Of a stretch of 64,000 nucleotides of DNA, positions 56,301 to 59,300 are shown piece by piece. This DNA comes from Escherichia coli (GTDB taxonomy: Bacteria; Pseudomonadota; Gammaproteobacteria; Enterobacterales; Enterobacteriaceae). Position numbers: made by a program. Each line of letters starts with the position of its first letter. The stretch's first letter is position 1. The DNA is taken from NCBI RefSeq assembly GCF_046105845.1, contig NZ_CP151004.1. One strand, 5' to 3'.

Positions 56301-59300
56301 CATCTGCACCAGCTCGGCACTGATTTGATCATCTTCAAACCAGACCATACGGTTTGAGAAAATTTCGCCAGTCGGCAATGGGAAAATATGATTCAACGCG
56401 GTATCCAGATCGTTAATCCGACAGAATGAGAGAAACAGCACCAGCCGATTACCGCCAATAGTCATGATATCGCCGGTGCGGTTAGGGCGACACAGCGTCA
56501 GGGCTTGTTCAACGCGGATACCCGGTACCGGACGTAGGGCAACCAGAACGCCTTTACCGTGGGCAGGTAATAGAGGGTTATTCATCATGCTGTTGACGGC
56601 ATTACAGAACACATCCCACTTCTGGAAACCACGCAGTTTGAGCGGCTGGGTCATTGACAGCAAGGTAGTGATATCTTCCGGCACATAGCGACTAAACTTC
56701 TGCCCTTGCACGCTTTCGATCATCGTCAGACAGCGTGAGAGTGGCGCATTCCATGGGATAACCATATTTGCACCGCAGGCCAATAACAAACGTTCATCGG
56801 TGGCGCGTAGGCTAGCGGTATTTTCCCGTACGAGGATTTTCATCGCACTACCGCGCTGGCGACGCAGGGTATGAATGCTGCGGGCCAGTGGCTCGATTTG
56901 TGCATTTTGCTGTAAAGAAAAGACCACCGTCGCCGCCTGAGCGGTACGGGCTTCATTGAACAGGACTTCGTTATTGTTGAACAGTTGCCAGTGTTCCGAT
57001 AGCGGCGGCGCACCTTCCAGTACAGCAACATTACTCAGAATGCGTTTTTCGTCGCTGCGTGGTTGGATCTCCGCTTCTTCGCTTTGAACTAATGTCCAGA
57101 TACCCTTTTGTTGCTGAACGCTAAGCTGCTGACGGGCGCTGACCCCTTTTTCGTTGCACCAGAAGGCAATATCCAGCAAATGTTGGTCGCCCTGGAAACG
57201 CAAACTGGCAAGACCAAAAAGTGAACGGTATTCCTCAAGCAACAATGAAAATTGTTTATCGTTATTATTTCCGGGATTAATTACCAAAAGCGAACAATGG
57301 TTTAACCTGCTCCATTTATTCATTTTATCCAACCACGAGTGAAGCCGCTCGGCAGGAATGTTTTGCCATGCGTTATTTGCGCAAACAAGAATAAAAAGGT
57401 AATTATGGGGATCAATAGAACACTGCAAATCACGGGCCAAATAGTATAGACCTTTTTCATGATTTAGCATTGAAAATAATTTTATTTTTTCCGGCCCTTG
57501 AGAATCATCTAATTGAAAGATTTTCGCCGGATCGCTGTCCATGCTAATGACCGCGACGTGTGCGGTTTCAGCCTGGGATGCAATTGTTTGATTCGCCAGA
57601 CTGATAGCATCTTCATGGCGATCGACGTTAAACCACCAGACGCCGCCTGCTGGCATATGTCGCAGCTCATCCCATAATGATGAGATACCGATAGAGAATA
57701 CAGGGTCCACAATGTCCCTCATGTCATCATTTTGTCTGATTATCAGTTTACTAGCGAAAGCTAAGAAATAAACCTACCATTGAAATTAAAACTTATCAGA
57801 TTTAGCATGTGAATCAATTTAGCAGGTCACAAGACGTGTGATTTTAGTCTTTTCGTTTTTAACTTTTTTTGTTGCGTAACGGAAAGTCAAAAAGTGAGCA
57901 AATTCCCGTCTCGCCGTAAACAATAAACCGGCGAAATGCTAACGGTTAGAATTGTCTCATGAACGGTACGGTTATTTCATAGGGATCAAGCAAATGAATA
58001 ACAATGAACCAGATACTCTGCCTGATCCCGCGATAGGCTATATCTTCCAGAATGATATTTTGGCGTTAAAGCAGGCATTTTCACTGCCTGATATTGATTA
58101 TGCCGATATTTCCCAACGCGAACAGTTGGCCGCGGCATTAAAACGCTGGCCGTTGCTGGCAGAGTTTGCGCAACAAAAGTAGGGGATTGGTGAATGGCCG
58201 TACTGGGATTGCAGGGGGTGCGGGGAGGCGTGGGGACAACAACCATCACCGCCGCATTAGCCTGGTCATTACAAATGTTGGGAGAAAATGTCCTGGTGGT
58301 CGATGCCTGCCCGGACAACTTGTTGCGCCTGTCATTTAACGTTGATTTTACCCACCGTCAGGGCTGGGCCAGAGCTATGCTGGATGACCAGGACTGGCGT
58401 GACGCCGGGTTGCGCTATACCTCGCAGCTCGATTTGCTGCCTTTTGGTCAGTTATCCATTGAAGAACAAGAAAATCCACAGCACTGGCAAACCCGGCTGA
58501 GCGATATTTGCTCCGGCTTACAGCAACTCAAAGCCAGCGGGCGTTACCATTGGATTTTAATCGACTTACCGCGTGATTCCTCGCAGATAACCCACCAGCT
58601 GCTGAGTTTGTGCGATCACTCGCTGGCAATCGTCAATGTGGATGCCAACTGCCATATCCGACTGCATCAGCAAGCGCTACCGGATGGCGCACATATTTTG
58701 ATTAATGACTTCCGTATCGGCAGTCAAGTTCAGGACGATATTTACCAGCTTTGGTTGCAAAGCCAGCGCCGATTACTGCCGATGCTCATTCATCGTGATG
58801 AAGCGATGGCTGAATGCCTGGCGGCTAAGCAACCAGTCGGTGAATACCGCAGTGATGCGCTGGCGGCTGAAGAGATACTGACGCTGGCTAACTGGTGCCT
58901 GTTGAACTATTCCGGGCTGAAAACGCCAGTCGGGAGTGCATCATGAGTATCCTGACCCGGTGGTTGCTTATCCCGCCGGTCAACGCGCGGCTTATCGGGC
59001 GTTATCGCGATTATCGTCGTCACGGCGCGTCGGCTTTCAGCGCGACGCTCGGCTGTTTTTGGTTGATTCTGGCCTGGATTTTTATTCCGCTGGAGCACCC
59101 GCGCTGGCAGCGTATTCGCGCAGAACATAAAAACCTGTATCCGCATATCAACGCCTCCCGTCCGCGTCCGCTGGACCCGGTCCGTTATCTCATTCAAACA
59201 TGCTGGTTACTGATCGGTACATCGCGCAAAGAAACGCCGAAACCGCGCAGGCGGACATTTTCAGGTCTGCAGAATATTCGTGGACGTTACCATCAATGGA

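What the first reader, a model, noticed from the sequence alone, without database searches (positions are those of the whole stretch)
58194..58946. bcsQ reading frame is intact
Seen in sequence: bcsQ translates without interruption for 250 aa, with Leu at codon 6, and bcsR-bcsQ-bcsA-bcsB-bcsZ form a tightly packed, overlapping operon divergent from bcsEFG. Established knowledge (from memory): K-12 laboratory strains carry a premature stop near the start of bcsQ that abolishes cellulose production. Inference: this genome is probably cellulose-proficient and not a K-12 derivative.
Basis: partly seen in the sequence, partly recalled or inferred. Interest (0 to 1): 0.25.

Follow-up and report, generated by a model that had tools for sequence, protein, structure and literature searches.

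The report
Intact wild-type bcsQ cellulose gene
This is an ordinary, uninterrupted copy of the cellulose-secretion gene bcsQ in a wild (non-K-12) E. coli, lacking the well-known laboratory-strain stop codon, so the strain has the structural genes for cellulose but nothing new is revealed.

Summary
Window 58194-58946 (+) is an uninterrupted 250-codon ORF that matches the BcsQ equivalog model end to end. Codon 6 is TTG (Leu). E. coli K-12 MG1655 has TAG at that codon, and this is the only difference in the first 10 codons. The window cannot be K-12: it is collinear with K-12 at only 97.0-98.1% identity, carries an lpfABCDE fimbrial island and a second ldr/rdl copy, and lacks the IS150 at hokA/sokA.

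bcsR, bcsQ, bcsA, bcsB and the divergent bcsE, bcsF, bcsG are all intact. They differ from K-12 proteins by 0-8 residues and are under strong purifying selection (dN/dS 0.02-0.10 for the five genes with synonymous differences). A public contig identical to the last 12.4 kb of the window shows full-length bcsZ and bcsC downstream.

"Cellulose-proficient" is shown only for the structural genes. The regulators (CsgD, RpoS, DgcC) lie outside the window, and published strains with an intact bcsQ can still be calcofluor-negative.

Two details need correcting. Only the bcsQ/bcsA junction overlaps on the + strand operon. Only 83 nt of bcsZ are in the window.

The TTG allele is the norm in E. coli, and the K-12 stop is textbook (Serra et al. 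2013). Already known; low interest.

The parts
58194..58946 (+). bcsQ, an intact 250-codon gene for the MinD/ParA-like (SIMIBI) ATPase BcsQ, which is essential for cellulose secretion
   Evidence: No internal stop. NCBIfam NF007460 scores 537.5 bits over 1-250/250. 245/250 residues are identical to the crystallised E. coli BcsQ (6YBU and others). All nine residues probed by mutagenesis are kept: R10, T15, C39, D41, D150, N152, R156, N171, R219.
58209..58211 (+). Codon 6 of bcsQ, TTG (Leu). This is the position of the K-12 TAG nonsense mutation.
   Evidence: Window TTG versus MG1655 TAG. The exact TTG 61-mer is in 3551 complete E. coli genomes and the TAG 61-mer in 349.
57994..58182 (+). bcsR (yhjR), 62 codons. 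It is the partner that stabilises BcsQ.
   Evidence: NCBIfam NF040717 BcsR scores 75.8 bits, cutoff 46. One aa difference from K-12, V23L.
58943..61561 (+). bcsA, the cellulose synthase catalytic subunit, 872 codons. Its ATG overlaps the bcsQ stop (ATGA).
   Evidence: NF008558 matches 1-872/872 at 1792.8 bits. Three aa differences from K-12, all N-terminal: M41L, A93T, A105T. Junction sequence read.
61572..63911 (+). bcsB, the periplasmic partner of the synthase, 779 codons
   Evidence: NF008325 scores 1383.7 bits over the full length. Eight aa differences from K-12 and no stops.
63918..64000 (+). First 83 nt of bcsZ (endoglucanase), cut by the end of the window
   Evidence: ATG lies 6 nt after the bcsB stop. 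In the identical contig L005 the gene continues to 368 codons without a stop.
57723..57993 (.). Divergent bcsE / bcsR intergenic control region, 271 nt
   Evidence: Four substitutions and one 1-nt indel relative to K-12. The consensus promoter scan found no more sites than chance.
56151..57722 (-). bcsE, a c-di-GMP-binding regulator, 523 codons
   Evidence: NF011619 scores 1184.7 bits over 1-523/523. Six aa differences from K-12.
55963..56154 (-). bcsF, 63 codons
   Evidence: TIGR03493 scores 116.4 bits. Identical to K-12 at the nucleotide level.
54287..55966 (-). bcsG, the phosphoethanolamine transferase that modifies cellulose, 559 codons
   Evidence: TIGR03368 scores 818.7 bits. Four aa differences from K-12.

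Best explanation
This is the normal, functional allele of bcsQ in a natural E. coli that is not K-12, sitting in a complete E. coli-type (type II) cellulose locus: bcsRQABZC divergent from bcsEFG. According to the literature, BcsQ is an ATP-binding MinD/ParA-like protein. Together with BcsR it forms an ATP-sandwich R2Q2 complex that binds BcsE and the synthase BcsA and is required for cellulose secretion. Because codon 6 is sense (TTG), ribosomes read through to the ATGA junction with bcsA. The protein is therefore made, and the loss of function seen in K-12, possibly compounded by a polar effect on downstream genes, does not arise. This step is inferred from the sequence. The strain therefore has the structural genes needed to make phosphoethanolamine-cellulose. 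Whether it does so depends on regulators outside the window.
For: The ORF is intact and matches the BcsQ model over its full length. Codon 6 is TTG against K-12 TAG. BcsQ is 98% identical to the crystallised BcsQ from the cellulose-producing strain 1094, and every residue probed by mutagenesis is conserved. The exact protein occurs on at least 1000 public contigs. dN/dS against K-12 is 0.07 for bcsQ and 0.02-0.10 for bcsA, bcsB, bcsE and bcsG. The other six bcs genes in the window are intact and differ by 0-8 residues from the K-12 proteins. Those K-12 proteins are shown to work by AR3110, which regains cellulose production after repair of codon 6 alone (PMC7397504). Contig L005 is identical to window 51572-64000 and carries bcsZ (368 aa) and bcsC (1157 aa) without stops. 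Non-K-12 origin rests on 97.0-98.1% identity with three structural differences.
Against: No phenotype is available. csgD, rpoS, dgcC and mlrA are not in the window. BL21 and H10407 lack a bcsQ stop but were calcofluor-negative (PMC5944007). The D65/H119/S129 BcsQ haplotype differs from the experimentally studied K-12-repaired and 1094 proteins, and I found no test of it. bcsZ and bcsC were checked in an identical contig, not in the window itself.
Confidence: 0.9

Rival explanations
1. The locus is intact, but the strain is cellulose-negative under standard conditions. The cause would be regulation (csgD, rpoS, dgcC, mlrA or pdeK lesions, or temperature-restricted expression) or one of the missense differences.
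For: Strains with an intact bcsQ (BL21, H10407) gave no calcofluor signal (PMC5944007). DgcC is specifically required for cellulose synthesis (PMC7397504, abstract). Loss of cellulose is frequent and convergent in E. coli lineages: 74 of 76 sequence types contain bcs loss-of-function mutants (PMC10881479). Several substitutions here are in neither K-12 nor AST215: BcsB R286L, BcsE R128H/N206K/N378S/D453E/S491N, BcsG F79L.
Against: None of the nine structural genes carries a loss-of-function mutation. dN/dS is low. The exact BcsQ and BcsA proteins are very widespread. The regulators cannot be examined with these data.
Confidence: 0.3
2. The window comes from a K-12 derivative in which bcsQ was repaired, like strain AR3110 (TAG changed to TTG).
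For: AR3110-type strains exist and have TTG at codon 6 (PMC7397504).
Against: There are 15 further nucleotide differences in bcsQ alone. The whole 64 kb is 97.0-98.1% identical to K-12, has a 5.8-kb lpf island and a second ldr/rdl copy, and lacks the IS150.
Confidence: 0
3. The TTG is a sequencing or assembly error that hides a real stop codon.
For: None specific. A single base decides the call.
Against: An independent public assembly (L005) is identical over 12,429 nt, including this base. The same 61-mer occurs in 3551 complete genomes.
Confidence: 0.01

Closest known systems
BcsQ of cellulose-producing E. coli 1094 (PDB 6YAR, 6YB3, 6YBU, 9FNN and others)
   Same: 250 aa long, 245/250 identical, same deviant Walker A (R10, T15) and same ATP-sandwich residues N152, R156, N171. 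Same bcsR-bcsQ-bcsA context.
   Different: Five substitutions: D65 for G, H119 for Q, S129 for A, D172 for N, A249 for K. I found no functional test of any of them.
bcsQ pseudogene b3534 of E. coli K-12 MG1655/W3110
   Same: Same length, position and neighbours, 97.9% nucleotide identity.
   Different: K-12 has TAG at codon 6 and the window has TTG. There are also three missense and 12 synonymous differences.
bcsQ of K-12 AR3110 (repaired allele; Serra, Richter and Hengge 2013)
   Same: TTG at codon 6 and an intact frame. This allele is the experimental proof that the codon decides cellulose production in K-12 (PMC7397504).
   Different: AR3110 is otherwise K-12. The window is a different lineage.
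E. coli-type (type II) bcs cluster bcsRQABZC / bcsEFG, which makes pEtN-cellulose
   Same: Same gene order, orientation and gene lengths for all genes visible.
   Different: Nothing detected. bcsZ is cut by the window end and bcsC is outside it.

Membership tests
BcsQ (NCBIfam NF007460 / TIGR03371; Pfam PF06564 CBP_BcsQ) | Full-length match to the curated equivalog model above its cutoff | tested here: met
   NF007460 scores 537.5 bits against a cutoff of 399, over 1-250/250. TIGR03371 scores 297.4 bits against 157.85.
BcsQ (NCBIfam NF007460 / TIGR03371; Pfam PF06564 CBP_BcsQ) | SIMIBI/MinD-type nucleotide-binding core with the BcsQ-specific deviant Walker A (R10, T15) and trans-acting N152/R156 | tested here: met
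   All nine residues described in PMC7840130 are present. 98% identity to the solved chain 6YBU_A. The fold itself was not modelled.
BcsQ (NCBIfam NF007460 / TIGR03371; Pfam PF06564 CBP_BcsQ) | Encoded between bcsR and bcsA in a bcs operon | tested here: met
   bcsR is at 57994-58182 and bcsA at 58943-61561, both above their family cutoffs.
BcsQ (NCBIfam NF007460 / TIGR03371; Pfam PF06564 CBP_BcsQ) | [quoted passage not shown] | not testable with these tools
   This needs a deletion and complementation test with a calcofluor or Congo red read-out.
E. coli-type (type II) cellulose secretion locus | All nine genes bcsR,Q,A,B,Z,C and bcsE,F,G present and uninterrupted | tested here: met
   Seven genes are complete and intact in the window. 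bcsZ and bcsC are intact in contig L005, which is identical to window 51572-64000. For those two genes the evidence is indirect.
E. coli K-12 lineage | TAG at bcsQ codon 6 | tested here: not met
   The window has TTG. The TAG 61-mer was found in 349 genomes, and all 64 of those listed are K-12-type laboratory strains.
E. coli K-12 lineage | Near-identity to MG1655 and the K-12 structure of this region (IS150 at hokA/sokA, no lpf island between yhjX and eptB, one ldr/rdl copy here) | tested here: not met
   Identity is 97.0-98.1%. There is no IS150, a 5.8-kb lpfABCDE island is present, and there are two rdlD matches.

The most novel reading that the evidence does not exclude
The D65/H119/S129 BcsQ haplotype is derived relative to the G65/Q119/A129 state seen in K-12, strain 1094 and a cryptic-clade Escherichia. 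It might alter BcsQ behaviour, for example ATP turnover or binding to BcsE or BcsA, so that lineages carrying it regulate cellulose secretion differently. Alternatively, this strain could be one of the intact-locus but cellulose-silent strains, with the cause lying in regulation.
Probability: 0.05. Interest if true: 0.25.

Novelty: already known. Interest (0 to 1): 0.06.

Why it matters
It matters little beyond annotation. The result types the window as a wild E. coli rather than a K-12 laboratory strain. It also shows a cellulose locus free of the loss-of-function mutations that are common in many E. coli lineages (PMC10881479). That makes the source strain a reasonable candidate for pEtN-cellulose biofilm studies. 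It opens no new question.

Tried and rejected
The consensus promoter and terminator scan of 57600-59100 found no more sites than shuffled sequence, so it says nothing about the bcs promoters.

I looked for the source genome among 5426 complete RefSeq E. coli genomes. No genome reached 99% identity over window 37001-62000, and the best were 95-97%. Strain AST215 is 100% identical over bcsR-bcsQ but only about 98.7% over the rest, and it lacks the lpf island.

I tested whether the K-12 TAG allele also occurs in natural ST10-complex isolates, because PMC10881479 reports a shared BcsQ nonsense mutation in ST167, ST617 and ST744. All 64 sampled carriers of the TAG 61-mer look like K-12 laboratory strains. 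The paper's supplement gives only 'truncated.bcsQ' without a position, so the position of that other mutation remains unknown.

The primary paper, Serra et al. 2013 (PMC3889604), is not held. Its finding is cited through PMC7397504 and PMC5944007.

The repaired-K-12 (AR3110-like) reading and the sequencing-error reading were both rejected, as set out under the rival explanations.

Full report
**Observation**

Window 58194-58946 on the + strand translates to 250 sense codons followed by TGA, with no internal stop. The opposite strand in the same register is full of stops. The mechanical ORF list gives the same 250-aa ATG ORF.

The first codons are ATG GCC GTA CTG GGA TTG CAG, so codon 6 is TTG (Leu) at 58209-58211. 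The protein matches the NCBIfam BcsQ equivalog NF007460 over 1-250/250 at 537.5 bits, against a cutoff of 399.

**Comparison with K-12**

In MG1655, b3534 (bcsQ) is annotated as a pseudogene of the same 753-nt length. Its translation reads MAVLG*QG....

A codon-by-codon comparison finds 16 differing codons, each with one base changed:
- One is TTG versus TAG at codon 6.
- Three are missense: G65D, Q119H and A129S (K-12 residue first).
- Twelve are synonymous.

Codon 6 is the only difference in the first 10 codons.

K-12 carries TAG at codon 6 (17T>A). Changing it to TTG gives the cellulose-proficient strain AR3110. Either loss of BcsQ or a polar effect on neighbouring genes has been proposed as the cause (PMC7397504; PMC5944007).

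**How common each allele is**

- The K-12 61-mer centred on TAG is exact in 349 of 5244 matching complete E. coli genomes. All 60 top rows and all 4 rows from an evenly spread sample are K-12-type laboratory strains with genomes of about 4.46-4.79 Mb.
- The window's TTG 61-mer is exact in 3551 genomes.

The intact allele is therefore the norm. The stop is a K-12 marker in this collection.

**Operon anatomy**

| Junction | Spacing |
|---|---|
| bcsR (57994-58182) to bcsQ | 11-nt gap |
| bcsQ to bcsA (58943-61561) | 4-nt ATGA overlap |
| bcsA to bcsB (61572-63911) | 10-nt gap |
| bcsB to bcsZ (starts 63918) | 6-nt gap |
| bcsE (56151-57722) to bcsF (55963-56154), - strand | 4-nt overlap |
| bcsF to bcsG (54287-55966), - strand | 4-nt overlap |

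- A GGGAG sequence lies 6 nt upstream of the bcsA ATG.
- Only 83 nt of bcsZ are in the window.
- All seven complete genes exceed their curated family cutoffs over their full length.

'Tightly packed' is correct. 'Overlapping' holds for only one junction of the bcsRQABZ operon. bcsZ could be seen only as 27 codons.

**Is it K-12?**

No. The window is collinear with MG1655 3,690,179-3,749,657 at 97.0-98.1% identity. It differs from K-12 in structure in three ways:
- A 5.8-kb insertion at 37365-43138.
- No IS150 in the hokA/sokA locus.
- A second ldr/rdl copy.

All 45 K-12 genes mapped across the window are present without stops or frameshifts; sgbU is cut by the window start. This also rules out a repaired K-12 derivative such as AR3110.

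**Is it cellulose-proficient?**

The evidence in favour is as follows.
- The in-window Bcs proteins differ from the K-12 proteins by 1 (BcsR), 3 plus the stop (BcsQ), 3 (BcsA), 8 (BcsB), 6 (BcsE), 0 (BcsF) and 4 (BcsG) residues. AR3110 regains cellulose production after repair of codon 6 alone, which shows that the K-12 proteins are functional.
- dN/dS against K-12 is 0.07 for bcsQ and 0.02-0.10 for bcsA, bcsB, bcsE and bcsG.
- BcsQ is 245/250 identical to the crystallised protein from the producer strain 1094. It keeps all residues whose mutation affected secretion or that contact ligands in PMC7840130: R10, T15, C39, D41, D150, N152, R156, N171 and R219.
- The exact BcsQ and BcsA sequences occur on at least 1000 public contigs. 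The exact BcsB, BcsG and BcsE sequences occur on 10, 6 and 3 contigs.
- One of those contigs, L005 (GCA_044249515.1, DBAMWG010000004.1), is identical to window 51572-64000 at all 12,429 positions. It continues into bcsZ (368 codons) and bcsC (1157 codons), both without stops, and then into a 662-aa GGDEF/EAL gene in the position of pdeK.

All nine structural genes are therefore intact in what is very probably the same clone.

**Limits of that inference**

- Cellulose synthesis needs c-di-GMP from DgcC, which is under CsgD and RpoS control (PMC7397504). None of these genes is in the window.
- BL21 and H10407 lack the bcsQ stop but gave no calcofluor signal (PMC5944007).
- Loss-of-function mutations in bcs genes are widespread and convergent in E. 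coli. They occur in 74 of 76 common sequence types, and 14 sequence types have more than 80% of strains affected (PMC10881479).

An intact bcsQ is thus necessary but not sufficient. A locus with all nine genes intact is informative, but it does not establish a phenotype.

**Mechanism**

From the literature (PMC7840130):
- BcsQ is a SIMIBI (MinD/ParA-like) NTPase.
- It forms ATP-bound sandwich dimers that are stabilised by BcsR (R2Q2).
- The complex binds BcsE and contacts BcsA.
- ATP binding is indispensable for secretion.

Inferred here from the sequence:
- A sense codon 6 allows full translation of bcsQ up to the ATGA junction.
- BcsQ is therefore made, and bcsA can be translated in the coupled manner that the overlap suggests.

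**Verdict**

The non-K-12 inference is correct. The proficiency inference is reasonable, but only for the structural genes. Everything here is established knowledge: a wild-type allele of a well-studied gene.

**Seen in passing**

- The lpfABCDE island between yhjX and eptB.
- An undisrupted hok/sok locus.
- Two ldr/rdl modules.
- A variably present intergenic repeat of about 118 bp.
- Signs of allele mosaicism across bcsG and bcsE among otherwise near-identical contigs.

Noticed in passing
window 37365-43138: An intact long polar fimbriae operon, lpfABCDE, lies between yhjX and eptB. The ORFs are 37690-38214 (LpfA), 38298-38984 (LpfB), 39008-41539 (LpfC usher), 41520-42599 (LpfD) and 42605-43126 (LpfE). 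All exceed their NCBIfam equivalog cutoffs. The operon is absent from K-12 and AST215 and sits at the same site in O103:H2, O111:H8 and LF82. The left junction changes the last three residues of YhjX.
   Followed up: partly
window 27425-27780: The hokA/sokA type I toxin-antitoxin locus is undisrupted. Rfam finds a full-length sok RNA at 27425-27576, and HokA is 100% identical to K-12. The 1.4-kb IS150 that splits this locus in K-12 is absent.
   Followed up: partly
window 53395-54284: Two tandem ldr/rdlD type I toxin-antitoxin modules sit between yhjV and bcsG, with rdlD matches at 53496-53561 and 53979-54044. K-12 has one here, and one related contig (L007) has three. Copy number at this site is variable.
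   Followed up: no
window 8584-8700: A repeat element of about 118 bp lies between ysaA and avtA. Rfam matches ES036/CssrF at 8632-8674, just above its cutoff. The element is present here and in K-12 but absent from AST215. An 88%-identical copy sits in the K-12 dppA-dppB spacer, and the window lacks it there. This behaves like a mobile intergenic repeat.
   Followed up: no
window 54248-57941; L004 and L006: Two contigs that share the exact BcsB protein differ from the window in clustered patches. L004 has 21 mismatches, most of them within bcsG. L006 has 48, most of those listed within bcsE. This suggests recombination mosaicism inside the bcs locus. No complete RefSeq E. coli genome reaches 99% identity over window 37001-62000.
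   Followed up: no
window 58386-58580 (bcsQ codons 65, 119, 129): The D65/H119/S129 BcsQ haplotype is widespread, with the exact protein on at least 1000 contigs. It differs from the G65/Q119/A129 state of K-12, strain 1094, a Shigella boydii protein and a cryptic-clade Escherichia protein. I found no functional data for it.
   Followed up: partly
window 45161-45580: tRNA-Pro(CGG) is at 45161-45237, followed by an RtT repeat RNA at 45272-45405 and a naRNA4/CssrE match at 45499-45580 on the - strand. The arrangement corresponds to the K-12 proK region.
   Followed up: no
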